Both the position numbers and the translations under genes were made by a program. This document shows, piece after piece, positions 38,221 to 57,607 of a DNA stretch of 64,000 nucleotides (within the stretch, counting starts at the first letter, position 1; each line of letters opens with the position of its first letter). The notes under the pieces are model-generated. The model searched no databases, was not told the origin of the DNA, and saw only the letters and a program-made list of their open reading frames with translations. This DNA comes from an uncultured Actinomycetes bacterium (lineage in GTDB: Bacteria > Actinomycetota > Thermoleophilia > Gaiellales > F1-60-MAGs149): contig CAVZZG010000003.1 in assembly GCA_963779685.1 (NCBI GenBank), positions 44,950-108,949 of the forward strand. The letters run 5' to 3'.

Positions 38221-38293
38221 AGGGGCGTAGCTCAGCTGGTAGAGCATCGGTCTCCAAAACCGAGGGTCGCAGGTTCGAGCCCTGTCGCCCCTG
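38221..38293 (+). tRNA. tRNA-Trp (anticodon CCA)
   Basis: It folds by hand into a cloverleaf. The acceptor stem is AGGGGCG/CGCCCCT. The D arm is GCTC-AGCTGGTA-GAGC. The anticodon arm is TCGGT-CTCCAAA-ACCGA. The T arm is GCAGG-TTCGAGC-CCTGT. The CCA end is not encoded. Confidence 0.9.
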
Positions 38294-38304
38294 CTCCGTG
38301 GAAC

Positions 38305-38349
38305 AAGGGAATCCCCCGCATTCATCAGGAATCCGGGGGGTTCCCTTTT
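38305..38349 (+). terminator. Intrinsic terminator downstream of tRNA-Trp
   Basis: AAGGGAATCCCCCG-(15 nt)-CGGGGGGTTCCCTT forms a 14-bp stem with one G-U pair and runs into TTTT. Confidence 0.7.
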
Positions 38350-38428
38350 CCACAGGCGGCGACGCCTATCGAGCTCCGCCTGGCCGTCGTACTCCACCAC
38401 GGAACCGTTCCAGAACGGACGATTCGGT

Positions 38429-38833
38429 CTACGTCGCGTCCATGACGTATGCGAACAGCGCGAGCCCGACACCACCGCCGAGAATGATGGCCATCGGGAC
38501 GCCCATCGGTCGATCGAGCCCGGGGATCGGGGTGTCGCCGACCCTTCCGCGGAGGAAGACGATGATCGCCACCACGAACCACGATATGCCCCACACGACG
38601 ATGCCCCCTGTGCTCACACCGAGACGTCTGGCGATGAGCGCCGTCTCGATAGCACCGAGGAGACAGGCTCCGGCCCACCGCAACCGCACGTAATCAGGTG
38701 CGACTGGCCCGGCGTCGACCCCGGCCGCCGGCGGGGGGAACCAGGCTCGAATCACCCGACGGTTCGTGCCGCGGAGCTCCTCGTTGACCGCGACGACCAG
38801 GAGGACGATCACCACGCCGGCGATGTAGTTCAC
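38429..38833 (-). CDS. Hypothetical membrane protein (about 4 predicted TM segments)
   Basis: 134-aa ORF with hydrophobic helices. No recognisable family. Local GC is lower than the flanks. Confidence 0.5.
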   Translation of the reverse strand: MNYIAGVVIVLLVVAVNEELRGTNRRVIRAWFPPPAAGVDAGPVAPDYVRLRWAGACLLGAIETALIARRLGVSTGGIVVWGISWFVVAIIVFLRGRVGDTPIPGLDRPMGVPMAIILGGGVGLALFAYVMDAT

Positions 38834-39028
38834 GACCCCACCGTCACGGACGCATCGATGTCCACGAGCACCACTGCCACGATCCTAGCCGCGCCGAATC
38901 ACGAACGCGAGCACGTCGCGCCGGGCCTACCGCCGAGCCGGGAACGCGGATACGGGCGCGCATCGCTTTGCGCTACGGCATGAAGCGGCGCCAGACCGGC
39001 TTGGAGAAGTCGAGGTAGCATTGCCGGG

Positions 39029-39373
39029 ATGACCAGTCGCACGGCGTGGCGTTGGTACGCCGTCGGCGCGTGCGTCGTCGGGCTCGCGCTGATCGCGACG
39101 GTCGTGGTCATCGACCCGTTCGCGTGGCGCGGCGACATTTGGTGCGGAAACCAGCCGTACACCTCGCTCGGCTCCTTCTTCGTCGTGGGAGCCGGGCTCC
39201 TCGCTGGAACCGGGGTGTTCCTCCCACCGGTCTGGCTGCCGACCGGGTCAAGCCGGCGTATGGCCGGCCTGTACTTCCTCAGGTTCGGGGTCGCCCTGGC
39301 CGGTGCGTTGTTCGCGGCCGAGGCCGTCTGGAGCTACATGCTGGACGTCACACCCCAGGCTGGGTGCCTCTGA
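39029..39373 (+). CDS. Hypothetical membrane protein (about 3-4 TM segments)
   Basis: 114-aa ORF with several hydrophobic segments and no recognisable family. Confidence 0.45.
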   Translation: MTSRTAWRWYAVGACVVGLALIATVVVIDPFAWRGDIWCGNQPYTSLGSFFVVGAGLLAGTGVFLPPVWLPTGSSRRMAGLYFLRFGVALAGALFAAEAVWSYMLDVTPQAGCL

Positions 39374-39453
39374 CCCAGGCGTGCCGGTGGGCAACGTGAC
39401 CCCGGCTGGCAGTCGCAAGGATTGCGGCCGCGGAGCGCGGCGCGGCCGGCCGG

Positions 39454-42195
39454 TCAATCCTGAGGCAGACCACGCGGCCCCATCGCATCCGCGAGTTCGG
39501 CCCGCGAGCCGATGGCGAGCTTCTGATAGACGTGGCGCAGGTGGTACTCGACGGTCTTCGGGCTGAGGAAGAGGATGGCGGCCGTCTCGCGCGTCGTCCG
39601 GCCCGATGCGAGCACCGTCGCGACCGTGTACTCCTGCGCCGTCAGCTCGTCGAACCGCTCGTCAGCGCGCGGCAGGGCCGTCTCGCCTGCCGCTGCCAGC
39701 TCGGCCGCCGCGCGCGCGGCCCAGCGAGCTGCGCCGAGGCGGTCGAACGCCGCGAAGGCCGCGCGTAGCTGCTCGCGCGCGGCGCTGCGACGGCGCGCGC
39801 GGCGCAGCCGCTCGCCGTAGAGGAGCCGTGTGCGGGCTAGCTCGAAGGCGTCGGGCGTGCGTGCGTGCAGCTCGATTGCCGTGCGGAATCGCTCGTCGAT
39901 GTCGGCGTCGACGGCGAGCAGGCCCTCCGCCCGGCGCAGCCGGGCGATCGCCCATGGCTGGCCCTTGGCGAGCGCCGCCGTGGCATAGACGCCGAGGCAC
40001 GCCGCCGCCTCGCCCGACCTGCCGCTCGCGACCAGGACCTCGACCAGCTCTGGCTCCGGGGCGAGGTCCGGGTCGCCGACGCCGAGGTCATCGATCAGCT
40101 CCCGCCGTGCTCGCAGCGCCGCCACCGATGCTGGCAGATCGCCGCGGCCGGCCTCCAGGTCGGCGAGGGCTGCGAGCCGCCAGATCTCGTAGGTGCGGCA
40201 GCCGACCTCCACGCACCGGCCGCGCAGGTGATCGATCCGCCGCATCGCCGTCTCGTGGTCGCCCAGGCGGGCTTCGAGCCAGGCCAGGCCGGCGAGGGCT
40301 GTCGCGGCGTCCAGCGCCGCGCCGATCTGTTCGGCGAGGGCGATCGCTTCCTCGTAGAGCGCGACGGCGATGCGCCACCGGGCACCCGCGGCCGCCTCCC
40401 GCGCGAGATCGCGCAGCAGCTCCACGAGCAACCCAGTCGAGATCTCCCTCCGCGTCAGGGTCTGCGCCGCGCTGAAGAGGCGGGCGCCGGCGCCCGCCTC
40501 TCGCAGGAACAACGCCCCGGCCGTTGCCCACCGAAGCGACCGGGGGTTGTCGAGCACCTCAGGGACGCGGTCGAGCTCGGCGAGCGCCTCGCTCAGGCGA
40601 CGCGGCCCCTCCCGGTCGGCCTCACCGGCGAAGATCAGCGCCATTCCGAGCAGCATCGAGGCCTCACGACGCTCCTCCGCAGGCGCTACCTCGAGCATCC
40701 GCCGTGCCATCACGACCATCCTCCGCGCGTCGCCGGCCACGAAGCACGTCCAGATGCCGGTGGCGCGCGCGTGCGCGGCGGCGCTCGGCTCGAAGGCGTC
40801 CAACCCCGCGGCCGCGCCGTCGAGGAGGTCGATCGCCGCGTCGAGCGGACCCGTTCGGGCGGCGATCAGACCAGCGAGCGCGCGCAGCTGCACCTCCTCG
40901 ATCGGATCCCCGACGATGCCTCGCGCCTCATCGACCAGCCCGGCGGCCTCGGCGAGGTCGCCTGCCTCGGCGGCTGCGGCCGCGGCGGCGTGCAGCCGGC
41001 GCGACCGCCGCGGCGGCTCGTCCGTGAGCCGTGCCGCGCGGCTCGACGCTCGCGCGGCGGCGGCGTGCGCACCCCGTGCGGTCGCCCGCCCGGCAGCCGC
41101 GTCGAGCGCGGCCGCCGCGACCTCGTCGCTGCCGGTCGCTGCGCTGGCGAGATGCCAGGCCCTGCTGTCCACCCGGTCGCGTCCGAGCACCTGCGCGAGT
41201 GCCCGGTGTGCAGCTCGCCGTTCCGCCGGAGCGGCGGAGTGGTAGCACGCCGCCTGCGCAAGCGGGTGGTAGAAGCGCAGCGCGCCGTCGGCGAGGGCTA
41301 CGAGGCCACTGGCCTCAGCCTCCTCGAGCCCCGCCTGTGCATCGGTGCCGATCACGGCGCACGCCGCCTCGATCTCCGTAAACGCCGCCCGGCCATCGGC
41401 GGCGGCGAGCAGCACGACGCGACGGGCGTCGGCCGAGAGGGGTCGGGCGCGGCGGAGGAACGCCTCGGTGATCCGATCGGACACCGCCACCAGCGACGAG
41501 TGTTCGCCCTCGCGGAGAGCGACGGGGTCGATCTCCGTCAGCCCGAGCGGGTTGCCCGTCGTGATCGCCAGGGCACGCTCGATCGCCGATGGCGAGGCCG
41601 GCCTGCCCGTGCGGGCGCTCAGCAGGACACCGGCCGCGTCGGCGTCGAGTCCCCGGAGCACGAGGAGCGGCAGGTCGGCTGCATCGTCGCCCGCCCCCTC
41701 GCGATCGCCCATCGCGAGCAGCACGGCCACGTGATCGGCACCGAGGCGGCGAGTGGCGAACAGCAGTGCCTCCGCGGAGGACCGGTCGAGCCAGTGGGCG
41801 TCGTCCACCGTGACGAGCAGGGGCTGCTCCTCGGCGAGCGAGGCCAGCAGGCCGAGCGTTGCCGCACCGACTGCGAAGCGGTCGCCCGGCGCCGGCGGGC
41901 CGAGGGCGAGGGCCCCGCGCAGGGTCGAGGCGAGCCGGTCGGGGAGGTTATCGATCGACGGCAAGACCGGCCGCAGGAGCTCGAGTAGCCCGCCGAACGG
42001 CACGGCCGCCTCGGACTCGACGCCGCGCGTCGCCAGCAGCTGCATGCCGGTCGCCCGGGCACGCACCGCCTCGATCAGCGCGGTCTTGCCGACCCCTGGC
42101 TCTCCACGGATCACCAGCACACCGGCACTGCCGCTCCGCGCCGCGGCGAGCATGCGCTCCACGCGCTCCAGCTCCGGATCCCGGCCGACGAGCAC
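39454..42195 (-). CDS. LAL-type (large ATP-binding LuxR family) transcriptional regulator
   Basis: N-terminal AAA/STAND P-loop GEPGVGKTAL with a Walker B-like LLVTVDDAHWLD. A long Ala/Leu-rich TPR-like middle region. C-terminal LuxR HTH (LTAQEYTVATVLASGRTTRETAAILFLSPKTVEYHLRHVYQKL). 913 aa. Confidence 0.9.
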   Translation of the reverse strand: MLVGRDPELERVERMLAAARSGSAGVLVIRGEPGVGKTALIEAVRARATGMQLLATRGVESEAAVPFGGLLELLRPVLPSIDNLPDRLASTLRGALALGPPAPGDRFAVGAATLGLLASLAEEQPLLVTVDDAHWLDRSSAEALLFATRRLGADHVAVLLAMGDREGAGDDAADLPLLVLRGLDADAAGVLLSARTGRPASPSAIERALAITTGNPLGLTEIDPVALREGEHSSLVAVSDRITEAFLRRARPLSADARRVVLLAAADGRAAFTEIEAACAVIGTDAQAGLEEAEASGLVALADGALRFYHPLAQAACYHSAAPAERRAAHRALAQVLGRDRVDSRAWHLASAATGSDEVAAAALDAAAGRATARGAHAAAARASSRAARLTDEPPRRSRRLHAAAAAAAEAGDLAEAAGLVDEARGIVGDPIEEVQLRALAGLIAARTGPLDAAIDLLDGAAAGLDAFEPSAAAHARATGIWTCFVAGDARRMVVMARRMLEVAPAEERREASMLLGMALIFAGEADREGPRRLSEALAELDRVPEVLDNPRSLRWATAGALFLREAGAGARLFSAAQTLTRREISTGLLVELLRDLAREAAAGARWRIAVALYEEAIALAEQIGAALDAATALAGLAWLEARLGDHETAMRRIDHLRGRCVEVGCRTYEIWRLAALADLEAGRGDLPASVAALRARRELIDDLGVGDPDLAPEPELVEVLVASGRSGEAAACLGVYATAALAKGQPWAIARLRRAEGLLAVDADIDERFRTAIELHARTPDAFELARTRLLYGERLRRARRRSAAREQLRAAFAAFDRLGAARWAARAAAELAAAGETALPRADERFDELTAQEYTVATVLASGRTTRETAAILFLSPKTVEYHLRHVYQKLAIGSRAELADAMGPRGLPQD

Positions 42196-42292
42196 CGCAC
42201 GATTCTACGCCGCCGCCATGACCAGGGGTGGGCCCCTGATGCGGAGGTCGATGGCGCGGCGTAGCGTCACCGCCAACGCGAAAGGAGCGGGA

Positions 42293-43360
42293 ATGGCAGC
42301 GAACGTGATCGACGAGGAACGGCTCGGAGCGTTCATGAACCAGGCGGTGACCGAGCTCGGCGCAACGCTCGGTGCGGCACTCGTGGTGATCGGCGACCAG
42401 CTCGGCCTCTACCGGGCCATGGCCGACGGCAGTCCGCTGCTCCCGGCGGAGCTCGCCGACCGGACGGGCACCACGGAGCGCTACGTCCGCGAGTGGCTCT
42501 GCGCCCAGGCGGCAGGCGGTTACATCGAATACGACGCCGCGACACGCCGCTTCCGCCTGCCGCCCGAGCAGGCGCTGGCGCTCGCCGACGAGACCAGCCC
42601 GTTCTTCCTCTGCGGGGCGTTCCAGGGCATGACGAGCCTCGTGCGCGACGAGCCGAAGATCCGCGCGGCCTTCCAGAGCGGCTCCGGTGTAGGGTGGCAC
42701 GAGCACCACCACGACCTCTTCGAGGGCACCGAGCGCTTCTTCCGCACTGGCTACAACGCACACCTGATCCACGACTGGATCCCGGCACTCGACGGCGTCG
42801 AGGAGCGCCTCCGCACCGGCGCGAGCGTTGCCGACATCGGCTGCGGGCTGGGCGCGTCGACGATCCTGATGGCGCGCGCCTACCCGGAGTCGACCTTCGT
42901 CGGCTTCGACTACCACGACGAGTCGATCCGGCTCGCGACCGAGCGCGCATCGGCGGCGGGCGTGGGCGACCGCGTCCGCTTCGAGGTCGCCTCAGCGAAG
43001 CAGTTCCACGGGCGGGACTACGATCTCGTCGCAATGTTCGACTGCCTGCACGACATGGGTGATCCCGTCGGCGCGGCGCGCCACGTGCGCCAGGCCCTGC
43101 GGCCCGACGGCACGTGGCTGGTGGTCGAGCCCTTCGCCGGCGACGCCGTCGAGGAGAACCTCAACCCCGTCGGGCGTGTCTACTACGGCGCCTCGACGCT
43201 CGTCTGCACGCCAGCCTCGCTCTCGCAGGAGGTCGGTCTCGGCCTCGGCGCCCAGGCCGGCGAGGCGCGGCTGCGCGACGTCGTCACGGCCGGCGGCTTC
43301 ACCCGCTTCCGCCGGGCGACCGAGACGCCCTTCAACCTCGTGCTGGAAGCGCGGCCATGA
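42293..43360 (+). CDS. Class I SAM-dependent methyltransferase with an N-terminal winged-helix dimerisation-like domain
   Basis: RBS AAAGGAG, then ATG at 42293. SAM motif I is VADIGCGLGAS. It also has the acidic loop FDYHDES and the post-II motif DLVAMFDCLHDMGDP. Confidence 0.85.
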   Translation: MAANVIDEERLGAFMNQAVTELGATLGAALVVIGDQLGLYRAMADGSPLLPAELADRTGTTERYVREWLCAQAAGGYIEYDAATRRFRLPPEQALALADETSPFFLCGAFQGMTSLVRDEPKIRAAFQSGSGVGWHEHHHDLFEGTERFFRTGYNAHLIHDWIPALDGVEERLRTGASVADIGCGLGASTILMARAYPESTFVGFDYHDESIRLATERASAAGVGDRVRFEVASAKQFHGRDYDLVAMFDCLHDMGDPVGAARHVRQALRPDGTWLVVEPFAGDAVEENLNPVGRVYYGASTLVCTPASLSQEVGLGLGAQAGEARLRDVVTAGGFTRFRRATETPFNLVLEARP

Positions 43361-45492
43361 GCGACGCCGTCACGCGCACGACGCTCGCCCGTCAGCCGGA
43401 CGAGGCCGGGTTCGTCGAGCGTGACGGCGTGCGGATCGCCTACGCGAGCTACGGCTCCGGGCCGGAGACGATCGTGCTCCTGCCAAGCTGGACGCTGGTC
43501 GACGCGCGGCAGTGGCGGGCCCAGGTGCCCTACCTCGCCCGCCACTGTCGCGTCGTCACGTTCGACCCGCGCGGGAACGGCGGAAGCGACGCCCCGCTCG
43601 AGCCGGCCGCCTACGCCGAGCGGGAGGTCGCGCTCGACGCCGTCGCCGTCATGGACCAGCTCGGCATCCAGCGGGCCGGCATCGTCGGCCTGTCGAGCGG
43701 CGCGCTACCGCTCGTCGTGCTCGCGGCCGAGCATCCTGAACGCGTGCGCGCCGCGGTCGTGATCGCCGCGGCCGTTCCGCTCGTCGACACCCTCGAGCAG
43801 GCGGTCGACTTCGAGGCCGTGGTCGACGATCCGCAGGGCTGGGAACGCTATAGCCGGCACGCCTGGCTGACCGACTTCGACGGCTTCGTGCAGTGGTTCA
43901 CGGGCGAGATCTTCAGCGAGCCGCACTCGACCAGGGCGTTCGAGTACCTCGTCGGGCTCACCGAGGGCACGACCGGCGAGACCCTGGCACGAGCGGTGGA
44001 CGGTGAGGCCCTCGACGAGGAGGAGGTGCGGCGGCTCGCGCGCAGCATCCGCTGCCCGCTGCTCGTCGTGCACGGTGACGAGGACCGCGTCACGGCCTAC
44101 GCCGGCGGCGTCGAGTTGGCGCGTGAGACCGGCGCGCCGCTCGTCACCTACCACGGCGTCGGCCACCAGCCGGCGGTGCGGGAGCCGGTGAGGCTCAACC
44201 TGCTGCTCCGCGACGCGTTGCTTGCGCCGCGAACGCCTGCGCCGTTCACGCGCGCCGTCCGCCGCGCGCCGCGCGCGCTGGTCGTGTGCTCGCCGATCGG
44301 GCTCGGCCACGTCCGCCGCGACCTCGCCGTCGTGGCCGAGTTGCGCCGACGCGTGCCGGGTCTCGAGATCGAGTGGCTCGCACAGCACCCCGTCACTGCG
44401 GTCCTGCAGGAGCACGGCGAGCGTGTGCACGCAGCCAGCCGCGAGCTCGCCAGCGAGTCGGCGCACTGGACGGCGGCGAGCTCCGGACATCGCCTCCCGG
44501 CGTTCGAGGCCTTCCGGCGCATGGACGACATCCTGCTTGCCAACTACCTGCTCTTCGACGACGTCGCGCACGACGGCGCGTACGACCTCTGGCTCGGCGA
44601 CGAGGCCTGGGACGTCGACTACTTCCTGCACGAGAACCCGGAGCGCAAGAGCGCCGCGTACGTGTGGATGACCGACTTCGTCGGCTTCGCCGCGCTGCCG
44701 GATGGAGGTGAGCGCGAGGCGACCCTCGTCGCCGACTACAACGCCGAGATGGTCGAGCAGGTCGAGCGGTTCCCCCGCCTTCGCGACGCCGCGATCTTCG
44801 TCGGCGACCCGGCGGACATCCCTCCGGGCCGGTTCGGGCCCGATCTCCCCGAGGTACGGCCATGGGTCGAGCGGCGATTCGACTTCAGCGGTTACATCAC
44901 CGATCCGCACCAGCCCGGCCCGGGCGATCGTGCGCGCCTGCGCGCGGAGCTCGGGATCGACGACGGACCGCTCTGTGTGGTCGCCGTCGGCGGCTCGGGC
45001 GTCGGGTCGGCGCTGCTCGAGCGGGCCGTGGCCGCGCTGGCGTACGTCCGCCGGCAGGTGCCGGGCCTCAGCATGCTCGCGGTGGCCGGACCCCGGATCG
45101 ATCCGGCGTCGCTGCCGGCGGCCGAGGGCCTGGAAGCGGTCGGCCACATCGCCGACCTGCCGGCCTGGCTGGCCGCGTGCGACGTCGCAGTCGTCCAGGG
45201 CGGCCTGTCGACCTGCATGGAGCTGGTCGCTGCGGGAACGCCGTTCGTCCAGATTCCGCTCGATGACCACTACGAGCAGCAGGTGCACGTCCGCCACCGG
45301 CTCGTCCGGCATGGCGCCGGCCCGGGCCTGGCATTCGACGACGCGTCACCGGAGGGCCTCGCCGCCGCGATCGTCAGACGCCTCGAGGAGCCGCCGCCGC
45401 GCTACCTCGCCGTGCCCGCCGACGGTGCGGCGCGCGCCGCCGAGCAGATCGCGCCGCTGCTCGTGCAACAGGGCAGCAGGCAGCTCTGGTGA
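43357..45492 (+). CDS. Fusion protein: N-terminal alpha/beta-hydrolase fold plus C-terminal GT-B (GT1/GT28 MGT-like) glycosyltransferase
   Basis: Residues 1 to ~290 carry the nucleophile elbow GLSSG, HGDEDRV and a terminal His (HGVGH). From residue ~300 there is SPIGLGHVRRDL.., then ..VAVGGSGVG.. and VVQGGLSTCMELVAAGTPFVQIPL..HYEQ. The ATG overlaps the methyltransferase stop (ATGA). Confidence 0.78.
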   Translation: MSDAVTRTTLARQPDEAGFVERDGVRIAYASYGSGPETIVLLPSWTLVDARQWRAQVPYLARHCRVVTFDPRGNGGSDAPLEPAAYAEREVALDAVAVMDQLGIQRAGIVGLSSGALPLVVLAAEHPERVRAAVVIAAAVPLVDTLEQAVDFEAVVDDPQGWERYSRHAWLTDFDGFVQWFTGEIFSEPHSTRAFEYLVGLTEGTTGETLARAVDGEALDEEEVRRLARSIRCPLLVVHGDEDRVTAYAGGVELARETGAPLVTYHGVGHQPAVREPVRLNLLLRDALLAPRTPAPFTRAVRRAPRALVVCSPIGLGHVRRDLAVVAELRRRVPGLEIEWLAQHPVTAVLQEHGERVHAASRELASESAHWTAASSGHRLPAFEAFRRMDDILLANYLLFDDVAHDGAYDLWLGDEAWDVDYFLHENPERKSAAYVWMTDFVGFAALPDGGEREATLVADYNAEMVEQVERFPRLRDAAIFVGDPADIPPGRFGPDLPEVRPWVERRFDFSGYITDPHQPGPGDRARLRAELGIDDGPLCVVAVGGSGVGSALLERAVAALAYVRRQVPGLSMLAVAGPRIDPASLPAAEGLEAVGHIADLPAWLAACDVAVVQGGLSTCMELVAAGTPFVQIPLDDHYEQQVHVRHRLVRHGAGPGLAFDDASPEGLAAAIVRRLEEPPPRYLAVPADGAARAAEQIAPLLVQQGSRQLW

Positions 45493-45613
45493 TCGACGTG
45501 ACGGCGTAGGAGCCGCGGATCGGGAAGCGCGCCCGGCACTTTTGCGGGAAACCCGCACACTTGCGCGGCCTCACTGCTTCACAACGACCGGCCGACCTGT
45601 TATTACCCAGTAC

Positions 45614-46438
45614 ATGGCAGAAGGAGAGGGCAAGGGACTCGGCATCATCGCTGGACTCGCAGTGGCGCTCGGCGGCGGGATCGTCGTGCTGGCGCTGCTG
45701 GTGCTGTTGTTCAGGTCGATGGATTCGAGCAGCGCGAGTTCGACGGTCACCGTCACGGCGGCGGCGACCACGTCAACCGCCCCGGCGACGACCGCGGCGG
45801 CGGCGACGAGCCAGCCTGCCGAGGTGGTGCTGGGTGCGCGCACGTACGTCGCGTTCGCCTGTGGCGCCTGCCATGGCTGGAAGGGAGAGGGTGGCGTCTC
45901 GCCGGCCGTGCCGCCGCTGAACGTCGCCTCCCAGGAGTTCACGCCCGCCCAGCTGCGCGCGATCATCAACCATGGTGCCCCATCGCCCCTCCCGGCCGAC
46001 CCGAAGCAGCCGTTCATGCCGGTCTGGGGTCCGGTCATCTCCGACCAGCAGGTCTCGGCGCTCGTCGCGTACATCAACGCCAAGCTCCCGACGATCGAGG
46101 GCATCGCCCCACCGGACGTGCCGGCAGGCGCTTCCGACGAGGTCGCCGGCTCGATCCTCTACCAGAGCTACGGTTGCATCAACTGCCACGGCCCGAACGG
46201 CCTCGGCGGCGTGCCGAACCCGGCCAACCCCGCCGGCGAGCCGATCCCGGCGCTGTCGGGGGCCGACTTCCGCAAGGAATTCAACACGCCGGAGAAGATC
46301 TCGTCGATCATCCTCGACGGCAGCGTGCTCGGGTCCAGCGCCCGCCCGATCGTCTCGATGCCCCACTGGCGGGGCATCCTCACGGACGCCGAGGTGGCGC
46401 AACTCGTCGCCTTCATCGACACGCTCAAGAAGCGGTAG
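45614..46438 (+). CDS. Membrane-anchored diheme c-type cytochrome
   Basis: Two CxxCH motifs (CGACH, CINCH). An N-terminal TM helix is followed by a Ser/Thr/Ala-rich linker. Each heme domain has a distal Met (FMPVWG, SMPHW). Confidence 0.85.
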   Translation: MAEGEGKGLGIIAGLAVALGGGIVVLALLVLLFRSMDSSSASSTVTVTAAATTSTAPATTAAAATSQPAEVVLGARTYVAFACGACHGWKGEGGVSPAVPPLNVASQEFTPAQLRAIINHGAPSPLPADPKQPFMPVWGPVISDQQVSALVAYINAKLPTIEGIAPPDVPAGASDEVAGSILYQSYGCINCHGPNGLGGVPNPANPAGEPIPALSGADFRKEFNTPEKISSIILDGSVLGSSARPIVSMPHWRGILTDAEVAQLVAFIDTLKKR

Positions 46439-47624: not shown

Positions 47625-48526
47625 GTCTGCGTCCCGGCGGCGAACGTCCTGGTGTGGCGGACGACGTGAGCTGGTATCTGGAGGGCGCCCGGGCGAACGG
47701 GATCGCTCCGGCGACGGTGCGCAGCTACGGCACCGACCTGCGCGCCTACGTGCGGTGGCTCGCCGAGCGCGACCGCACGCCGGCCTCGGCGACCCGCGCT
47801 GACGTCCGCGCCTACGCCGCCTCGCTTGCCGCCCGCGACCTCGCAGCATCGAGTCGCGCGCGAGCCCTGTCCGCGATCCGCGGCCTGCACCGCCGGCTGC
47901 ACGATGCCGGCCGCGCCCCGCGCGACCCGGCCGCCGAGCTGCGAGGGCCGCGACGACCCCGCCGCCTCCCCGCGGCGCCCGGCGTCGCCGACGTCGCCCG
48001 GTTGCTCGACGCCCCGTGGCCGGAAGGCCCGCTCCCGCTCCGTGACCGTGCGCTGCTCGAGCTCCTCTACGGTTGCGGTCTGCGGGTTGCCGAGGTGTGC
48101 GCGCTCGACCTCGGCGACGTCACGGCCCGCGAGGTGCGGATCCACGGCAAGGGCGCGCGGGTGCGCATCGTCCCGATCGGCGCCGCGGCAGCCGCGGCGA
48201 CCGCCGCCTGGGCGGCGCGTGGCCGTCCGCAGGTCGCGCGGCCGGAGTCCGGCCGTGCCCTGCTGCTGAGCACCCGTGGACGCCGCATCGAGGTGACCAC
48301 CGCCCGCCGCGTCCTCGCCCGGCGAGCCGCCGCAGTCGGCCTCGACCACCTCCATCCGCATGCGCTGCGCCACGCCTACGCCACCCACCTGCTGGAGGGT
48401 GGTGGGGATCTGCGAGCAATCCAGGAACTTCTGGGGCATGCTTCGTTAGCCACCACCGAGATCTACACCCGGGTCACGGTGGGGCATCTCCGTCAAGCCC
48501 ACGCCCTCGCGCATCCACGAAATTGA
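47621..48526 (+). CDS. xerC: Tyrosine recombinase XerC/XerD
   Basis: An N-terminal SAM-like domain is followed by catalytic residues R (GLRVAE), HxxR (HALRHAYATHLL), H and Y (LGHASLATTEIYTRV). It lies in a dprA...xerC-whiG neighbourhood. Confidence 0.9.
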   Translation: MSLRPGGERPGVADDVSWYLEGARANGIAPATVRSYGTDLRAYVRWLAERDRTPASATRADVRAYAASLAARDLAASSRARALSAIRGLHRRLHDAGRAPRDPAAELRGPRRPRRLPAAPGVADVARLLDAPWPEGPLPLRDRALLELLYGCGLRVAEVCALDLGDVTAREVRIHGKGARVRIVPIGAAAAAATAAWAARGRPQVARPESGRALLLSTRGRRIEVTTARRVLARRAAAVGLDHLHPHALRHAYATHLLEGGGDLRAIQELLGHASLATTEIYTRVTVGHLRQAHALAHPRN

Positions 48527-49302
48527 TGGCCCAAAGCAAGGTCGCAATCGAGGATATCTGGCAGAAGTACAGCGAAACGCGCGACAAGGCGCTTCGCGAT
48601 CGCCTGATCCTGAACTACGCCCCCCTCGTCAAGTACGTGGCGAGCCGGCTCGGCACGAGCCTGCCTGCCCACGTCGACGAGGGTGATCTCGTGTCCTACG
48701 GCCTGCTCGGCCTGATCGGCGCCATCGAGCGCTACGACCCCGACCGCGAGATCAAGTTCGAGACCTACGCGATCTCGCGGATCAAGGGCTCGATCATCGA
48801 CGAGCTCCGCTCGCTCGACTGGGTGCCGAGGTCGGTCCGTTCGCGGGCCCGCGAGATCGAGCGCGCCATGCTCGAGCTCGAGAACCGGCTCAAGCGCCCG
48901 CCGTCGGACGAGGAGGTCGCTGCCGAGATCGGGATCTCGGTCGACGACTTCCAGGACTCGCTCACGGCCATCTCCCGCTCGTCGGTCGCCGCGCTGGACG
49001 AGCTCTGGCAGATCTCCACCGGCGGCGGCGACACCGTCAGCCTCATCGACACGATCGAGGATCCCAACGCCGAGGATCCCACGCGCAAGATCGCCCAGTC
49101 CGAGGTGAAGGAGGCGCTGGCGGACGCCATCCAGCGGCTCCCCGAACGAGAGCGCCTCGTGATCACGCTCTACTACTACGAGGAGCTCACGCTCCGCGAG
49201 ATCGGCGAGGTGCTGCACGTCACCGAGTCGCGCGTCTCGCAGCTGCACACGAAGGCGATCCTGCGCCTGAAGGTGCGCCTTCAGGGCAACCTCAACCGTT
49301 GA
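48526..49302 (+). CDS. whiG: FliA/WhiG-family (sigma-28 type) RNA polymerase sigma factor
   Basis: Region 2 is ..LVSYGLLGLIGAIERYDP..FETYAISRIKGSIIDELR. Region 4 is LYYYEELTLREIGEVLHVTESRVSQLHTKAILRL. The ATG overlaps the xerC stop by 1 nt. Confidence 0.9.
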   Translation: MAQSKVAIEDIWQKYSETRDKALRDRLILNYAPLVKYVASRLGTSLPAHVDEGDLVSYGLLGLIGAIERYDPDREIKFETYAISRIKGSIIDELRSLDWVPRSVRSRAREIERAMLELENRLKRPPSDEEVAAEIGISVDDFQDSLTAISRSSVAALDELWQISTGGGDTVSLIDTIEDPNAEDPTRKIAQSEVKEALADAIQRLPERERLVITLYYYEELTLREIGEVLHVTESRVSQLHTKAILRLKVRLQGNLNR

Positions 49303-49931
49303 CGACCCGGCTCGCGGGGTTCGCCGGTCGCGTCGGCTCCGTCTCGGTGTTCACGCTCCTCGCGGTGCTGCAGGCGGATGCCGCCCGCGGCACGGTCCAG
49401 AGCTCGGCCCGCGTCTTCCACGCCCTGACTGCCTGCCTGTGGCTCCTGTTTGCGTGGGCCGCCCTCCGCCGCGCAACCCCTGTGAAGCGCGGACCGGTGC
49501 TCGGCGCCGCCGTGGGGTTCGCGTCGATCCCGGCGGCCGTCGCGCTCTCCCTGGCCGGCTCGGACGCGGCGGCCGCGCCGTGGCGGATCGCCACGGCGGA
49601 CGTGCTGCTCGCCGTCGGCCTTTCCTGGGCGCTCGTCTCGGCGGCCTGGCTGGGTCGGTGTTTCGGGGTGTTCCCGGACGCCCGAGGGCTGGTCACCACC
49701 GGGCCGTATGCGGTCGTGCGCCATCCGCTGTACCTGGGCGAGCTGACGGGCATGGCCGGCGTCGTGCTCTGCTCGACGCGTTCGGTCGTCGCGCTGGGAG
49801 CCTTCGCCGTCCTGGTCGCCATCGACCTCGCCCGCACGGTGTACGAGGAGCAGACGCTGCGGTCGGCGTTCCCGGACTACGACGACTACGCCCGCCGTGT
49901 CCGCTTCCGGATCGTCCCGGGTGCCCTCTAG
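49299..49931 (+). CDS. Isoprenylcysteine carboxyl methyltransferase (ICMT/PEMT) family membrane protein
   Basis: It is multi-TM and has the C-terminal motif LVTTGPYAVVRHPLYLGE...EEQTLRSAFPDY. The TTG overlaps the whiG stop. Confidence 0.8.
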   Translation: MTTRLAGFAGRVGSVSVFTLLAVLQADAARGTVQSSARVFHALTACLWLLFAWAALRRATPVKRGPVLGAAVGFASIPAAVALSLAGSDAAAAPWRIATADVLLAVGLSWALVSAAWLGRCFGVFPDARGLVTTGPYAVVRHPLYLGELTGMAGVVLCSTRSVVALGAFAVLVAIDLARTVYEEQTLRSAFPDYDDYARRVRFRIVPGAL

Positions 49932-49947
49932 TTGGGCTCGGCGGCGG

Positions 49948-50629
49948 TCAGGTGAGCGACACGTCGGTCGTCTCGCGCATCTCCTCGAAGTAGGCCACGG
50001 CAGCGGCGCGCGTGTGCACTTCGAGTTTGCGCAGGATGGCCTTGACGTGCGATCTCACGGTCTCGATCGACACCACGAGCTCTGCCGCGATCTCGCCGGT
50101 GCGGAGACCGCCGGCCAGCATGCCCAGGATCTGCCACTCACGGTGGGTCAGGTGCGCGCCCCGTGCTCGGCGGTGCTCGGCGCGCCTCGCCGCCACCCGC
50201 TGGTACTCGTGCACCAGGAGCGAGGTCATGCGGCGCGAGAGCGGAGCCTCGCCCTGGGCGGCGGCGGCTAGCGTCTCGCCCAGCCGCGATGCCGCCATGT
50301 CCTTCGTCAGGTAGCCGTCGACGCCGCTGCGGAGCGCGCGGAACAGGTCGGCCGGCTTCTCCGACGAGGTCAGGACCACGATCCGGGCATCGTCGTTGAG
50401 CGATCGCAGCTCGACGCCGAGATCGAGTCCATCGCCGTCCCGCAGGTAGATGTCGAGCAGCACCAGGTCGAACTCGAGCCGCGGCGCGAGTGCCCGGGCC
50501 ACCGGCACACGAGCCGGCCTCGCCGGCGATCCGGAAGCCATCCTCGGTGAGGATGTCGACCAGGCCGCGGCGGGTCAGCTCGTGGCCTTCGACGATCAGA
50601 ATCCGCAGGGGTTTTCCGTCATAACCCAA
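49948..50629 (-). pseudogene. NarL/LuxR-family response regulator RR-1, with a +1 frameshift near 50503 (possibly a sequence error)
   Basis: The N-terminus MGYDGKPLRILIVEGHELTRRGLVDILTEDGFRIAGEAGSCA is in one frame (ORF 50138..50629). ..VARALAPRLEFDLVLLDIYLRDGDG..LuxR HTH is in the next frame (ORF 49948..50541). An extra G lies in gtgccGgtgg. RBS GAGGA precedes the TTG start. Confidence 0.8.
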
Positions 50630-50690
50630 CGCAGGTCCTCAGATATGGGGAGAGGGGAGAGGGTGTCGCGTCTTGACGATACCGTGTCGC

Positions 50691-51012
50691 CCCACCGGCG
50701 AGCATCGGTGGGAATCTGCGGATAGCTGCGGGCATACCGCAGATCGAACCCGGCACCTCTCCGCAGCGCCCTTGTGTCCCGAGTCCGGAGTTCGTCGGCA
50801 GGTCGGCGCGAGGAGCAAGCCTGGCAAGGAGCAGGCCCGAGAGGCAGGCTGGTGGCCTGTCCGAGGGCCCGCGATCTCGGCGATCTGGTGGATACCAGAT
50901 CGCCTCACACGCTGGGCAAGCATGGCTTGCCCAGCTCCACCGGCTTCCCGGTGGAGCCTGGCAAGAGCAACTTGCCAAGCGTATGAGGTGATGTGCTACC
51001 CAGCGCATCACC
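50691..51012. other. Hairpin-dense spacer: at least 8 consecutive stem-loops, 5 of them abutting between 50881 and 51012
   Basis: Stems are at 50692-50711 (6 bp), 50714-50744 (8 bp), 50833-50870 (imperfect), 50881-50902 (9 bp), 50911-50935 (11 bp), 50935-50956 (9 bp), 50959-50977 (7 bp) and 50987-51012 (7+2 bp). Each has a different sequence. Confidence 0.5.
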
Positions 51013-51067
51013 GATCAGGCGCCGCTCCGCAGCACCGGGAATGCCGGCGAACTTCCGACTCGGGACA

Positions 51068-51739
51068 CTAAGTGGTCGCGAGCACGCCGTCGGCGTCGTC
51101 GAGCCGCGCGATGGCGGCGGCCCGGGTGTGGACGCCGAGCTTGCGCAGGACCGCCTTGATGTGCGACCGCACCGTCTCGGTCGAGACGACGAGCTCGCCG
51201 GCGATGTCCACCGTGCGCTTGCCGTCGGCCAGCATGCACAGCACCTGCCACTCGCGCAGCGTGAGGCGGGCGCGGACGGCGCTCGCCCGCTGCCCGTGGG
51301 CCTGGTTGAGCCGCTGGTACTCCTGGACGAGCTGCGCGGTCATGCGCCGGGAGAGCGGCGCCTCGCCGCGGGCGGCGGCACGCAGGGTCTTGACCAGGCG
51401 CCCGGGGGGCATGTTGCGCCCGAGGTAGCCGTCCACGCCCCGTCGCAGCGCGCGGAAGAGGTCGGTCGGCCGCTCGGTCGTGGTCAGGACCACGACCTTG
51501 GCGTCGGGGTTCTCACGCCGTAGCTCGGCGGCCAGGTCGATGCCGTCGCCGTCGTCGAGGTCGTGGTCGACCAGGGCCAGGTCGTACCGCGCGACCCTGG
51601 GCACGAGCGCGCGCGCCGCCGCGCACGATCCCGCCTCCGCGACCACGCGAAACCCGGCCTGCGTGAGCACGCCGGCGAGGCCGGCGCGGGACGGTCGTTG
51701 ATCCTCGATCAGAAAGATCCGCAGGGGCGCCTGGGACAC
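51068..51739 (-). CDS. NarL/LuxR-family response regulator RR-2 (paralog of RR-1)
   Basis: The GTG at 51739 is preceded by GAGGAGGG. The receiver has the acceptor Asp in LALVDHDLDDGDG, followed by a LuxR HTH (LTLREWQVLCMLADGKRTVDIAGELVVSTETVRSHIKAVLRKL). Confidence 0.88.
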   Translation of the reverse strand: MSQAPLRIFLIEDQRPSRAGLAGVLTQAGFRVVAEAGSCAAARALVPRVARYDLALVDHDLDDGDGIDLAAELRRENPDAKVVVLTTTERPTDLFRALRRGVDGYLGRNMPPGRLVKTLRAAARGEAPLSRRMTAQLVQEYQRLNQAHGQRASAVRARLTLREWQVLCMLADGKRTVDIAGELVVSTETVRSHIKAVLRKLGVHTRAAAIARLDDADGVLATT

Positions 51740-51915
51740 TTCGCCCTCCTCGGTGGTCGTGCTCGTTCGCAACCGCACCCGCGGCGCGGGGATGCGCCGG
51801 CACGCTGGGGAGGGGCGGATGCTTCGCACCGGTGTATCACGGGTCGTCGCGCGCCGCAACCGCCGGATCCGGTCGGCCGGCCATTCCTGTGCGAGAATCC
51901 GTCCGGGAGAACCGC

Positions 51916-53210: not shown

Positions 53211-53222
53211 GGCGGGCTCCGA

Positions 53223-56395: not shown

Positions 56396-56396
56396 C

Positions 56397-57602: not shown

Positions 57603-57607
57603 GGCCG

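What the first reader, a model, noticed from the sequence alone, without database searches (positions are those of the whole stretch)
39454..46438. A LAL-type regulator divergent from a methyltransferase / hydrolase::glycosyltransferase / diheme cytochrome c cassette
A 913-aa ATPase-LuxR (LAL) regulator lies head-to-head, 97 nt apart, with a three-gene same-strand set. This regulator class is typically pathway-specific for secondary-metabolite clusters. The set comprises a SAM methyltransferase with a winged-helix N-domain, a translationally coupled (ATGA) 711-aa alpha/beta-hydrolase::GT-B glycosyltransferase fusion, and, after 121 nt, a membrane-anchored diheme cytochrome c. No core biosynthetic enzyme (PKS, NRPS, terpene cyclase) is present. 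It reads as a self-contained small-molecule tailoring or detoxification module (methylate, deacylate, glycosylate) under dedicated control. I cannot match this combination to a described system.
Basis: partly seen in the sequence, partly recalled or inferred. Interest (0 to 1): 0.55.

Follow-up and report, generated by a model that had tools for sequence, protein, structure and literature searches.

The report
Regulator-controlled esterase–glycosyltransferase fusion operon
A large ATP-dependent LuxR-type regulator, a methyltransferase and a fused esterase/sugar-transferase enzyme recur together, with the same promoter signal, in soil bacteria of three phyla and probably disarm a still unknown small molecule; the neighbouring cytochrome c gene is a bystander.

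Summary
All four genes exist at the stated coordinates with the stated domains. Three of them form a real, recurrent unit. The LAL regulator, the Rv2258c/TnmJ-like methyltransferase (MT) and the 711-aa alpha/beta-hydrolase::GT-B fusion keep the same layout in 22 of 77 evaluable species-level loci, from Thermoleophilia, Chloroflexota and Dormibacterota. These loci share a conserved operator-like box 17-19 nt upstream of a -10 hexamer of the MT promoter. The cytochrome c is never adjacent in about 160 distant loci.

The fusion is the core effector. In 33 of 77 loci a TetR gene replaces LAL plus MT, and split (TetR-hydrolase-GT) and GT-only (TetR-GT) versions also exist. The hydrolase has an invariant Ser-Asp-His triad and resembles aryl esterases and lactonases. 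The GT domain is structurally closest to GT1 small-molecule and antibiotic glycosyltransferases (CalG, OleD, YjiC). No biosynthetic core genes lie nearby; the module sits in a housekeeping backbone between dprA and xerC.

The best reading is an inducible ester/lactone-opening, glycosylating and optionally methylating small-molecule inactivation module. The substrate is unknown. It is an uncharacterised variant of known kinds and of moderate interest.

The parts
39454..42195 (-). LAL regulator (STAND/MalT-like ATPase + TPR-like middle + LuxR/GerE HTH), 913 aa
   Evidence: Pfam AAA_16 6e-21 and GerE 4.7e-14. Walker A GEPGVGKT and Walker B DDAHWLD. Full-length homologues of 41-47% identity lie next to the MT and fusion in 22 species-level loci.
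42202..42207 (-). Predicted -10 hexamer TAGAAT of the LAL promoter, 6 nt before the GTG start (leaderless mRNA predicted)
   Evidence: The window sequence reads TAGAAT-CGTGCG-GTG on the minus strand. A [TC]A[GC]AAT-like hexamer sits at the same 6-nt distance in at least 10 other loci. The leaderless start is inferred, not shown.
42220..42244 (+). Conserved operator-like box GACCAGGGGTGGGCCCCTGATGCGG (imperfect palindrome CAGGGG/CCCCTG), candidate LAL binding site centred about -43 of the MT promoter
   Evidence: The box is seen in 16 loci. With the stricter pattern, 20 of 31 hits in 3.67 Mb scanned (both strands counted) lie 43-105 nt, mostly 61-68 nt, upstream of the MT start on the same strand. 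It is also present in loci not used to derive it, and directly before the fusion in L062. No second copy was found in the window with a fixed-spacer (N5) pattern, which the window's own N6-spaced box does not match.
42262..42267 (+). Predicted -10 hexamer TAGCGT of the MT-fusion operon promoter
   Evidence: A TAnnnT hexamer lies at a fixed 17-19 nt after the box in all aligned loci. Promoter function is inferred.
42293..43360 (+). Rv2258c/TnmJ-like SAM-dependent methyltransferase-fold protein with N-terminal winged helix, 355 aa
   Evidence: PF21320 2.2e-16 and Methyltransf_31 1.6e-16. PDB hits TnmJ 8g5s 2e-56 and Rv2258c 5f8c 5e-48. Motif I is VADIGCGLG. It is 60-74% identical in the trio loci.
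43357..44241 (+). Alpha/beta-hydrolase domain of the fusion (residues 1-295), catalytic Ser113 (43693-43695), Asp243 (44083-44085) and His270 (44164-44166)
   Evidence: Abhydrolase_1 1.8e-20. The triad is invariant in 16 homologues. Among 120, Asp243 and His270 are invariant and Ser113 is at least 90% conserved. AF2 pLDDT is 94. Foldseek best hits are PFE aryl esterase, PcaD enol-lactonase 2xua and AHL-degrading Est816 5egn, with target TM 0.84-0.86.
44242..45492 (+). GT-B glycosyltransferase domain of the fusion (residues 296-711), GT1-like, with invariant His318 (44308-44310) in SPIGLGH and the C-terminal motif VVQGGLSTCMEL...P...HYEQ
   Evidence: Glyco_tran_28_C 1.5e-8. The AF2 domain model has pLDDT 93. 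Foldseek best hits are CalG1-4, OleD/OleI, YojK/UGT109A1, a mite UGT and GtfB/D at E 3e-14 to 1e-11. A profile against PDB sequences hits only the C-terminal half of GT1 and GT28 enzymes.
45614..46438 (+). Membrane-anchored diheme cytochrome c: a neighbour, NOT part of the conserved module
   Evidence: Cytochrome_CBB3 1.6e-22, two stretches, and a TM helix plus two CxxCH motifs. No homologue appears in any of the 82 + 80 related loci. Synteny is kept only in a relative whose cyt c falls in the same 90%-identity cluster (L163).

Best explanation
The real unit is a three-gene regulon. A leaderless LAL gene encodes a MalT-like ATP-dependent LuxR-type activator. It is transcribed divergently from a two-gene operon, translationally coupled by an ATGA overlap, that encodes an Rv2258c/TnmJ-like methyltransferase and an alpha/beta-hydrolase::GT1-like glycosyltransferase fusion.

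Proposed mechanism, with each step marked:
1. Inferred: a small-molecule ligand plus ATP switches the LAL on.
2. Inferred from a conserved box at a fixed promoter position: the LAL binds the imperfect palindrome centred about -43 and activates the MT-fusion promoter like a class II activator.
3. Shown only at the level of fold and conserved residues: the cytoplasmic fusion uses its Ser113-Asp243-His270 triad to open an ester or lactone bond. Its GT1-like domain (His318 as base, NDP-sugar site in the C-terminal half) puts a sugar on a hydroxyl or carboxyl of the same molecule.
4. Inferred: the MT adds a methyl group, or performs another SAM-fold reaction, on the same compound or a related one.

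The outcome would be inducible chemical inactivation or solubilisation of an exogenous ester- or lactone-bearing compound, such as an antibiotic, toxin or signal.

The fusion is the core effector. In other lineages it is governed by an upstream TetR repressor instead of LAL plus MT. The cytochrome c downstream is an unrelated respiratory gene.
For: Anatomy and domains.

Co-conservation:
- LAL + MT -> fusion occurs in 22 of 77 evaluable GTDB species loci, in Thermoleophilia, Chloroflexota and Dormibacterota.
- TetR -> fusion occurs in 33 of 77, often with a 4-nt overlap.
- A split version TetR -> hydrolase -> GT (L165) and a TetR -> GT-only version tie the hydrolase and GT together and point to ligand-responsive control.
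- No other gene is recurrently linked.

Cis element:
- A conserved box lies 17-19 nt upstream of a TAnnnT hexamer, independent of LAL orientation. It sits in front of the fusion when the MT is absent.

Enzymology:
- The triad is invariant in 16 homologues. In 120, Asp and His are invariant and Ser is at least 90% conserved.
- The AF2 model has pLDDT 94 and pTM 0.93.
- The hydrolase is nearest to aryl esterase, enol-lactonase and AHL lactonase, with weaker matches to macrolide esterases.
- The GT is nearest to natural-product and xenobiotic GT1 enzymes, including the macrolide-inactivating OleD/OleI.

Distribution:
- The family is patchy across at least 6 phyla at a flat 50-55% identity to the query, and occurs on a Deinococcus megaplasmid. 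This fits horizontal spread, as for resistance or detoxification genes.
- No signal peptide or TM segment is evident by eye in the MT or fusion sequences; no predictor was run.
Against: - No substrate is known, and no efflux pump, transporter or catabolic gene is co-conserved.
- All family-level HMM scores for specific functions (PcaD, macrolide esterases, MurG, activator-dependent GTs) are far below the curated cut-offs.
- By sequence alone, the GT is as close to GT28 (MurG, MGD1) as to GT1.
- The MT's closest solved relative, TnmJ, acts as an oxygenase and not as a methyltransferase (PMC11415531).
- The same MT family (63-71% identical) mostly occurs without the fusion: only 8 of 62 evaluable metagenome loci have the fusion directly downstream. 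It also occurs on Rhizobium and haloarchaeal plasmids, so its substrate may be unrelated to that of the fusion.
- LAL binding to the box, activation rather than repression, and the leaderless start are all untested.
Confidence: 0.55

Rival explanations
1. The genes are tailoring enzymes (deacylation, glycosylation, methylation) for an endogenous secondary metabolite made elsewhere in the genome, with the LAL acting as a pathway regulator.
For: LALs often sit in actinomycete biosynthetic clusters (PMC3282765). The best structural matches of the GT are natural-product tailoring GTs such as CalG, Gtf, LanGT2 and SpnG. The best PDB match of the MT is the enediyne enzyme TnmJ.
Against: No PKS, NRPS, terpene or sugar-biosynthesis genes appear among the ORFs scanned in the 64-kb window or as a recurrent neighbour in 82 + 80 related loci. 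The module sits in a housekeeping backbone. The same effector is TetR-controlled as a stand-alone gene in 33 of 77 loci. It is spread over six or more phyla, most of which are not known as rich producers.
Confidence: 0.12
2. The fusion is a cell-envelope or lipid enzyme. The GT-B domain would work like GT28 enzymes (MurG, MGDG/DGDG synthases) on a lipid acceptor, and the alpha/beta-hydrolase would act as a lipase or acyltransferase that remodels glycolipids.
For: The only Pfam GT hit above its cut-off is Glyco_tran_28_C. Sequence searches hit MurG and plant MGD1 at E values similar to GT1 enzymes. There is an NCBIfam murG hit at 1e-7.
Against: In the Foldseek search all 50 listed top matches are GT1-type small-molecule glycosyltransferases, one of them an engineered variant. 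There is no membrane anchor. Control by TetR or LAL with a single-gene effector is unusual for envelope biosynthesis. The family is patchy and accessory, not universal within clades.
Confidence: 0.12
3. The module is a catabolic unit. The hydrolase would be a PcaD-like enol-lactonase or C-C hydrolase of an aromatic degradation route, with the LAL acting like the catabolic LALs (MalT, AlkS, AcoK).
For: The best NCBIfam hits are PcaDC and PcaD (7e-28 and 4e-24). PcaD 2xua and meta-cleavage-product hydrolases are among the top structural matches. LALs control catabolic operons in Proteobacteria (own knowledge).
Against: The scores are far below the equivalog cut-offs (85 against 256 bits). No dioxygenase, CoA-transferase, thiolase or other pathway gene is co-conserved. 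A fused glycosyltransferase has no role in such a route.
Confidence: 0.07
4. It is a four-gene redox-linked cassette in which the diheme cytochrome c works with the three enzymes.
For: The cyt c lies on the same strand, 121 nt downstream. No convincing terminator lies in the gap: the only terminator-like hit of the scan is inside the cyt c coding region. Synteny is kept in one close relative.
Against: No cyt c homologue occurs in any of about 160 related loci. The cyt c is membrane-anchored with its heme domains presumably outside the cell, whereas the enzymes are cytoplasmic. None of the three enzymes has a redox cofactor domain.
Confidence: 0.03

Closest known systems
GT1 small-molecule and antibiotic glycosyltransferases (OleD/OleI macrolide GTs, CalG1-4, Bacillus YjiC/YojK/UGT109A1, GtfB/D)
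   Same: It has the GT-B fold, and these are the top Foldseek matches (E 3e-14 to 1e-11, TM about 0.6). It has an N-terminal Gly-rich loop with an invariant His (SPIGLGH). It has a C-terminal GG-T-x-x-E...P...(D/E)Q nucleotide-sugar motif. It is cytoplasmic and soluble.
   Different: Identity to these enzymes is only 14-19%, and no GT1 Pfam or NCBIfam model passes its cut-off. The domain is covalently fused to a catalytic alpha/beta-hydrolase. Many extra invariant His, Asp and Glu residues in the acceptor half suggest a distinct acceptor. Neither acceptor nor donor is known.
Alpha/beta-hydrolase esterases and lactonases: PFE aryl esterase, PcaD enol-lactonase (2xua), AHL-degrading Est816 (5egn), Est-type macrolide esterases EstT/EstX (PMC9974460, PMC11214618)
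   Same: The fold matches (target TM 0.84-0.86). A Ser-Asp-His triad is conserved, with a GxSxG elbow in this protein. There are partial HMM matches to PcaD and to macrolide esterase models.
   Different: Scores are far below every equivalog cut-off (for example macro_16_ester 62 against 420 bits and pcaD 85 against 256 bits). The domain is fused to a GT. A term search of two papers on Est-type macrolide esterases found no mention of a fusion or of a fused glycosyltransferase.
LAL / MalT-type STAND transcription activators
   Same: It is about 900 aa, with an N-terminal P-loop carrying Walker A and B motifs, a TPR-like sensor region and a C-terminal LuxR HTH. The target box overlaps the -35 region, as for class II activators.
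   Different: It is not in a biosynthetic cluster or a sugar regulon. Its ligand and regulon are unknown. Its own mRNA is predicted to be leaderless.
Rv2258c (M. tuberculosis, 5f8c) and TnmJ (tiancimycin pathway, 8g5s) winged-helix methyltransferase-fold enzymes
   Same: It shares the two-domain architecture and is strongly similar in sequence (5e-48 and 2e-56). The SAM motif I is intact.
   Different: I know of no substrate reported for Rv2258c (own knowledge). TnmJ works as an oxygenase (PMC11415531). The window protein belongs to a much more conserved subfamily, 63-71% identical from Thermoleophilia to Rhizobium and haloarchaea, which usually stands alone next to assorted regulators.
TetR-controlled drug-modifying enzymes such as MphR(A)/mphA (own knowledge)
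   Same: They share the regulator-plus-single-modifying-enzyme logic. About 43% of fusion genes have an upstream, often overlapping, TetR gene.
   Different: The window copy uses an ATP-dependent activator instead of a repressor and adds an MT. The inducers are unknown.

Membership tests
LAL (large ATP-binding LuxR-family regulators) | N-terminal P-loop NTPase with Walker A and B motifs | tested here: met
   AAA_16 6e-21, with GEPGVGKT and DDAHWLD.
LAL (large ATP-binding LuxR-family regulators) | C-terminal LuxR/GerE HTH, total length about 900-1000 aa with a TPR-like middle region | tested here: met
   GerE 4.7e-14 at residues 850-903, 913 aa in total, and TPR_12 at 9e-4, which is weak.
LAL (large ATP-binding LuxR-family regulators) | ATP- and ligand-dependent activation of target promoters | not testable with these tools
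   The only evidence is a conserved box at about -43 of the MT promoter.
   The flanks are lepB, rnhB, comM, dprA, sodA, xerC and a sigma factor. No core genes recur in related loci.
Rv2258c/TnmJ-like winged-helix methyltransferase fold | N-terminal Rv2258c-like winged helix plus a class I Rossmann domain with SAM motif I | tested here: met
   PF21320 2.2e-16 and Methyltransf_31 1.6e-16. PDB hits 8g5s 2e-56 and 5f8c 5e-48. Motif I is VADIGCGLG.
Rv2258c/TnmJ-like winged-helix methyltransferase fold | Actual methyl transfer to a defined substrate | not testable with these tools
   TnmJ is reported to act as an oxygenase, so the fold does not prove the chemistry.
Serine alpha/beta-hydrolase (esterase/lactonase type) | Alpha/beta-hydrolase fold with a nucleophile-acid-His triad | tested here: met
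   Foldseek target TM is 0.84-0.86. Ser113, Asp243 and His270 are invariant in 16 homologues. In 120, Asp and His are invariant and Ser is at least 90% conserved.
3-oxoadipate enol-lactonase PcaD (TIGR02427) | Score above the curated equivalog cut-off | tested here: not met
   85.4 bits against a cut-off of 255.85.
Est-type alpha/beta-hydrolase macrolide esterases (NF052610, EstT, EstX) | Score above the curated cut-off with a full-length match | tested here: not met
   61.6 bits against 420. The best-scoring stretch covers only residues 20-140, and EstT/EstX score 37-38 bits against 450-600.
CAZy GT1-type inverting GT-B glycosyltransferases | GT-B two-Rossmann fold closest to GT1 structures | tested here: met
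   The domain model has pLDDT 93. The 50 listed top PDB matches are all GT1-type small-molecule GTs, including one engineered variant.
CAZy GT1-type inverting GT-B glycosyltransferases | C-terminal NDP-sugar binding signature | tested here: met
   Glyco_tran_28_C 1.5e-8. The profile aligns with the donor-binding half of UGT109A1, YjiC and OleD. The motif is QGGLSTCMEL...P...HYEQ.
CAZy GT1-type inverting GT-B glycosyltransferases | N-terminal catalytic His paired with an Asp about 100 residues downstream | tested here: inconclusive
   His318 and Asp410/Asp415 are invariant at the expected spacing. No residue-level structural superposition was possible.
CAZy GT1-type inverting GT-B glycosyltransferases | Sequence-model membership (for example the EryCIII-like or activator-dependent GT models) | tested here: not met
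   EryCIII-like_C scores 18.1 bits against a cut-off of 31.7. TIGR04516 scores 18.6 against 440.
Four-gene cassette including the diheme cytochrome c | Co-conservation of the cytochrome c with the other genes | tested here: not met
   No cyt c homologue was found in any of the 82 fusion-centred or 80 MT-centred loci.
Known anti-phage defence systems | A significant PADLOC model match for a system component | tested here: not met
   Only generic domain-level hits were found.

The most novel reading that the evidence does not exclude
The hydrolase::GT1 fusion, with its optional MT, is a widespread soil-bacterial 'open-and-cap' inactivation system. The hydrolase opens a lactone ring of a signal or antibiotic, such as acyl-homoserine lactones, butyrolactones/butenolides, macrolides or resorcylic lactones. 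The fused glycosyltransferase and/or the MT then immediately cap the freed hydroxyl or carboxyl. This would make an otherwise reversible ring opening irreversible. I did not find this two-step mechanism, or a dedicated LAL- or TetR-sensed regulon for it, described in the literature I searched.
Probability: 0.15. Interest if true: 0.7.

Novelty: new variant of a known kind. Interest (0 to 1): 0.42.

Why it matters
If the reading holds, this is an uncharacterised and very common family. It is present in at least 594 GTDB species representatives and comprises 417 clusters at 50% identity for the GT domain alone. It would be a family of bifunctional small-molecule-modifying enzymes in poorly cultured soil lineages: Thermoleophilia, Dormibacterota, Eremiobacterota and Ktedonobacteria.

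The family comes with two alternative ligand-sensing regulators and a defined operator. That gives a direct handle for three tasks:
- finding the inducer, and therefore the substrate;
- annotating thousands of proteins now labelled 'alpha/beta hydrolase' or 'hypothetical';
- possibly adding an esterase-glycosyltransferase route to the environmental resistome or to signal-quenching mechanisms.

It is also a clean case of a LAL regulator working outside secondary metabolism.

Tried and rejected
- Genomic island at tRNA-Trp (38221-38294): no att-like direct repeat was found between 38150 and 50000, so this is not supported.
- Rfam families or a riboswitch: only the tRNA was found in the whole window. 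The 121-nt gap before the cyt c folds no better than shuffled sequence (z -0.73). The one terminator-like hit of the scan lies inside the cyt c coding region, not in the gap.
- Further LAL boxes in the window: a fixed-spacer (N5) pattern gave only chance-level hits, and the window's own N6-spaced box does not match that pattern. The first loose regex was too permissive in 72% GC DNA and was tightened.
- Anti-phage defence reading of the STAND ATPase: PADLOC gave only generic hits.
- Fold search of the full-length model returned only hydrolase matches. The GT domain had to be modelled separately.
- Exact look-up of the window's own fusion and cyt c proteins found no recorded contig. The organism is therefore not named; the cluster look-up lists these proteins on a single 2.47-Mb contig.
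- Looking for a replacement partner downstream of LAL-MT pairs that lack the fusion (L162, L141): my first ORF picks were in the wrong frame. The re-analysis shows unrelated genes on the other strand.
- Clean phylogenetic split between LAL/MT-type and TetR-type fusions: there is only a partial trend (71% identity within the TetR type, 62% within the MT type, 65% between them), so no claim is made.
- Literature searches found nothing describing this combination.

Full report
1. OBSERVATION

The window is about 72% GC, so long spurious ORFs abound.
- LAL: 39454-42195 (-), 913 aa.
- MT: 42293-43360 (+), 355 aa.
- Fusion: 43357-45492 (+), 711 aa.
- Cyt c: 45614-46438 (+), 274 aa.

The 97-nt divergent gap, the ATGA overlap of the MT stop with the fusion start, and the 121-nt gap before the cytochrome gene are all exact.

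Pfam and NCBIfam confirm every domain call.
- LAL: AAA_16 plus GerE, with a weak TPR.
- MT: an Rv2258c-like winged helix (PF21320) plus a class I methyltransferase domain.
- Fusion: Abhydrolase_1 in residues 39-257 and Glyco_tran_28_C in residues 594-680.
- Cyt c: two cytochrome c domains behind a TM helix, with CGACH and CINCH heme motifs.

2. SURROUNDINGS

The module lies in a housekeeping backbone.
- Upstream: priA, ribBA, recG, plsX, smc, ftsY, ffh, trmD, lepB, rnhB, yraN, comM, dprA and sodA.
- Then tRNA-Trp at 38221-38294.
- Then two small membrane ORFs, the four genes, and a convergent DUF2625 gene.
- Downstream: xerC, a WhiG/FliA-like sigma factor, a PEMT-like methyltransferase, two NarL-type response regulators and a Tad pilus cluster.

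None of the ORFs scanned in the 64 kb is a PKS, NRPS, terpene or sugar-biosynthesis gene. I found no att-like repeat that would define an island next to the tRNA.

3. IS THE GROUPING REAL?

The fusion protein has thousands of relatives (7925 scored hits). These are about 700-aa forms like this one, plus about 1020-aa forms with a second N-terminal hydrolase domain.

The 80 best come from Thermoleophilia (Solirubrobacterales, Gaiellales, Miltoncostaeaceae), other Actinomycetota, Chloroflexota/Ktedonobacterales, Dormibacterota, Eremiobacterota, Gemmatimonadota (Longimicrobiales) and Myxococcota (Polyangiales). All are a flat 47-55% identical to the query.

tblastn of the window proteins against these 82 loci gave this tally among the 77 loci with enough upstream sequence:
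- 22 loci: a full-length LAL (41-47% identity) plus the MT (60-74%) directly upstream of the fusion, nearly always in the window's layout;
- 1 locus: MT -> fusion only;
- 5 loci: the LAL nearby without the MT directly upstream;
- 33 loci: a TetR gene directly upstream of the fusion, often overlapping it by 4 nt;
- 16 loci: something else.

No other gene family recurs. The cytochrome c, DUF2625, sodA and the small ORF have no homologue in any locus. Only a relative whose cytochrome c falls in the same 90%-identity cluster keeps the fusion-cyt c-DUF2625 order.

The reciprocal survey centred on the MT used 80 metagenome contigs. This MT subfamily is 63-71% identical to the window copy, but it usually stands without these partners. 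Only 8 of 62 evaluable contigs have the fusion directly downstream, and 12 of 62 have the LAL upstream.

The same MT, still 63-65% identical, sits on 264 plasmids. These come from Rhizobium (188 records), Sinorhizobium, Streptomyces and even haloarchaea. In the two plasmids inspected (Rhizobium pRL11 and Natrinema), it is a single gene divergent from an unrelated regulator.

So the fusion is the core effector, LAL and TetR are alternative regulators, the MT is a facultative but strongly enriched partner, and the cytochrome c is a bystander.

4. ROSETTA-STONE AND SPLIT FORMS

A search with the GT domain alone against 1.84 billion representatives found 417 clusters at E <= 1e-30. Most are about 700-aa fusions, but there are also stand-alone GTs of about 400 aa at 32-45% identity.
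- One stand-alone GT has an overlapping TetR gene upstream.
- Another sits in an operon TetR -> 252-aa alpha/beta-hydrolase -> GT (L165). This is the unfused version of the same pair.
- On the 669-kb plasmid of the cultured Deinococcus sp. QL22, the TetR-type copy is annotated as two CDSs, 'alpha/beta hydrolase' and 'glycosyltransferase'.

These arrangements tie the hydrolase functionally to the GT and point to ligand-responsive control.

5. CIS ELEMENTS

The LAL-MT intergenic regions of 16 loci from three phyla share a box with the window. The consensus is GAC[CT]AGG[TG]G-N(4-6)-CC[CT][GT]GA[ATG]GCGA. The window copy lies at 42220-42244 and is the imperfect palindrome CAGGGG-TGGG-CCCCTG.

A TAnnnT hexamer follows 17-19 nt after the box (window: TAGCGT, 42262-42267). 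Then come the RBS AAAGGAG and the MT start.

With a stricter pattern, 20 of 31 hits in 3.67 Mb scanned (both strands counted) lie 43-105 nt, mostly 61-68 nt, upstream of an MT start on the same strand. Fewer than one such hit is expected by chance.

The pattern was derived from 16 of these loci. It also occurs in loci that were not used:
- co-directional LAL loci L011, L020 and L049;
- metagenome loci L099, L115, L122, L138, L141, L145, L146, L150, L152, L159 and L162;
- L062, which lacks the MT and has the box-promoter directly before the fusion.

The centre of the palindrome falls at about -43 of the predicted start site, the classical class II activator position. I therefore infer that this is the LAL operator and that the LAL activates the operon.

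On the other side, a [TC]A[GC]AAT hexamer (window: TAGAAT, complement of 42202-42207) sits exactly 6 nt before the LAL start codon in at least 10 loci. This predicts a leaderless LAL mRNA. None of these regulatory claims has been tested experimentally.

6. THE ENZYMES

With a 120-sequence alignment, AlphaFold2 gives the fusion a mean pLDDT of 94 and a pTM of 0.93, which suggests a fixed arrangement of the two domains.

Hydrolase domain:
- Ser113 (GLSSG elbow), Asp243 and His270 are invariant in a 16-sequence alignment. In 120 sequences Asp243 and His270 are invariant and Ser113 is at least 90% conserved.
- Its best structural matches are the Pseudomonas fluorescens aryl esterase, the PcaD enol-lactonase, the AHL-degrading Est816, haloperoxidase-type perhydrolases and C-C hydrolases. 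The EstX macrolide esterase and strigolactone-receptor-like hydrolases rank lower.
- Every function-specific NCBIfam model is far below its cut-off (PcaD 85 against 256 bits; macrolide esterase 62 against 420). It is therefore a serine esterase or lactonase of undefined specificity.

GT domain, modelled alone (pLDDT 93):
- It matches only GT1-type small-molecule glycosyltransferases in the 50 listed top hits: CalG1-4, the macrolide-inactivating OleD/OleI, Bacillus YjiC/YojK/UGT109A1, a spider-mite detoxification UGT, GtfB/D, LanGT2, SpnG/P and UrdGT2. E values are 3e-14 to about 5e-11 and TM is about 0.6.
- By sequence, only the donor-binding C-terminal half is recognisable, and it is equidistant from GT1 and GT28.
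- An invariant His318 in SPIGLGH and invariant Asp410/Asp415 lie at the spacing of the GT1 His-Asp dyad. The C-terminal QGGLSTCMEL...P...HYEQ resembles the GT1 sugar-nucleotide motif. Both correspondences are inferred, not verified by superposition.

MT:
- It is closest to TnmJ (2e-56) and Rv2258c (5e-48).
- I know of no substrate reported for Rv2258c (own knowledge), and TnmJ is reported to act as an oxygenase (PMC11415531). Methylation is therefore likely but not certain.

None of the three proteins shows an obvious signal peptide or TM segment by eye; no predictor was run.

7. MOST LIKELY MECHANISM (confidence about 0.55 for the functional part, higher for the anatomy)

A ligand-activated LAL switches on a two-gene operon. 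Its products hydrolyse an ester or lactone bond and glycosylate a small hydrophobic molecule inside the cell, and they probably methylate it as well. The molecule is thereby inactivated or solubilised.

The arguments for this reading are:
- the regulator-plus-single-effector logic with two interchangeable ligand-sensing regulator types;
- the GT1 small-molecule fold;
- the esterase/lactonase-like hydrolase with an intact triad;
- the absence of any biosynthetic, transport or catabolic partner;
- the patchy cross-phylum distribution, including a megaplasmid copy.

The weak points are:
- the unknown substrate;
- the sub-threshold family scores;
- the independence of the MT family from the fusion in most genomes.

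Rivals are scored in the report sections: tailoring of an endogenous metabolite (0.12), glycolipid or envelope remodelling (0.12), aromatic catabolism (0.07) and a four-gene redox cassette (0.03).

8. COMPARISON WITH KNOWN SYSTEMS AND NOVELTY

Each part belongs to a known superfamily (LAL, Rv2258c-like MT fold, serine alpha/beta-hydrolase, GT1-like GT-B), but none reaches a curated functional family. Three features appear in no paper I could find:
- the covalent hydrolase::GT1 fusion;
- its alternative LAL/MT or TetR control;
- the conserved operator.

Source annotations are generic: 'pimeloyl-ACP methyl ester carboxylesterase/predicted glycosyltransferase', 'alpha/beta fold hydrolase' or 'hypothetical'. 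LALs outside clusters are documented (PMC3282765), so the regulator class alone does not point to secondary metabolism.

I rate this a new variant of known kinds. It is a widespread, uncharacterised bifunctional modifying enzyme with a defined regulon. It is not a categorically new system.

Interest is 0.42. It is a solid, testable lead with a clear experimental path, but it is not surprising in kind. The most novel reading not excluded is an 'open-and-cap' lactone-inactivation mechanism for signals or antibiotics (probability about 0.15).

Noticed in passing
window 1-2250: The first ~2 kb have only 53-68% GC, against ~72-75% for most of the window. They carry a groES-like ORF (246-722, -), a usg-like ORF (1048-1230, +) and a tctC/Bug-like gene broken over three frames (1246-2220). 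The adjacent priA (from ~2250) seems to lack its N-terminal ~200 aa. This may be an assembly chimera or a scar of foreign, proteobacteria-like DNA.
   Followed up: partly
window 38221-38294 (+): A tRNA-Trp (CCA) lies directly after sodA and just before the lower-GC stretch (38300-39450) that holds two small membrane-protein ORFs (38429-38833 -, 39029-39373 +) with no Pfam hits. No att-like repeat was found, so it remains open whether the region between dprA and xerC, including the module, is an insertion.
   Followed up: partly
window 42293-43360; loci L083-L162, L169, L170: The MT belongs to an unusually conserved subfamily. It is 63-71% identical to copies on unclassified soil-metagenome contigs, on Rhizobium, Mesorhizobium and Streptomyces plasmids, and in haloarchaea (Natrinema). 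In the two plasmids inspected it is a single gene divergent from an unrelated regulator. It has a conserved GWHEH motif and conserved Cys residues. Its substrate is unknown and may be something ubiquitous.
   Followed up: partly
P0003, P0005, P0009, P0021 etc. (~1020-aa homologues; alignment A1 columns 1-300): Many relatives carry a second N-terminal alpha/beta-hydrolase domain. Its nucleophile elbow reads G-L-C-D-S, a Cys in place of Ser as in dienelactone hydrolases, followed by conserved HGTHD and GHLPQ motifs. This suggests a Cys-Asp-His triad.
   Followed up: no
L141, L159, L037, L099 (LAL-proximal part of the intergenic region): A second, half-site-like copy of the box (CACC[TC]G[AG]TGCGA) lies close to the LAL -10 hexamer in several loci but not in the window. 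It might serve LAL autoregulation. L052 has two full boxes in tandem.
   Followed up: no
window 46456-47019/47466 (-): A DUF2625 protein is convergent with the cytochrome c, 18 nt from its stop. The pair is kept in the close relative L163. Neither gene has a known link to the module.
   Followed up: no
window 48073-51934: A WhiG/FliA-type sigma factor, a PEMT/ICMT-like membrane methyltransferase (49299-49931) and two NarL-type response regulators precede a Tad/Flp pilus cluster (52311-61361). They may form a pilus regulatory block.
   Followed up: no
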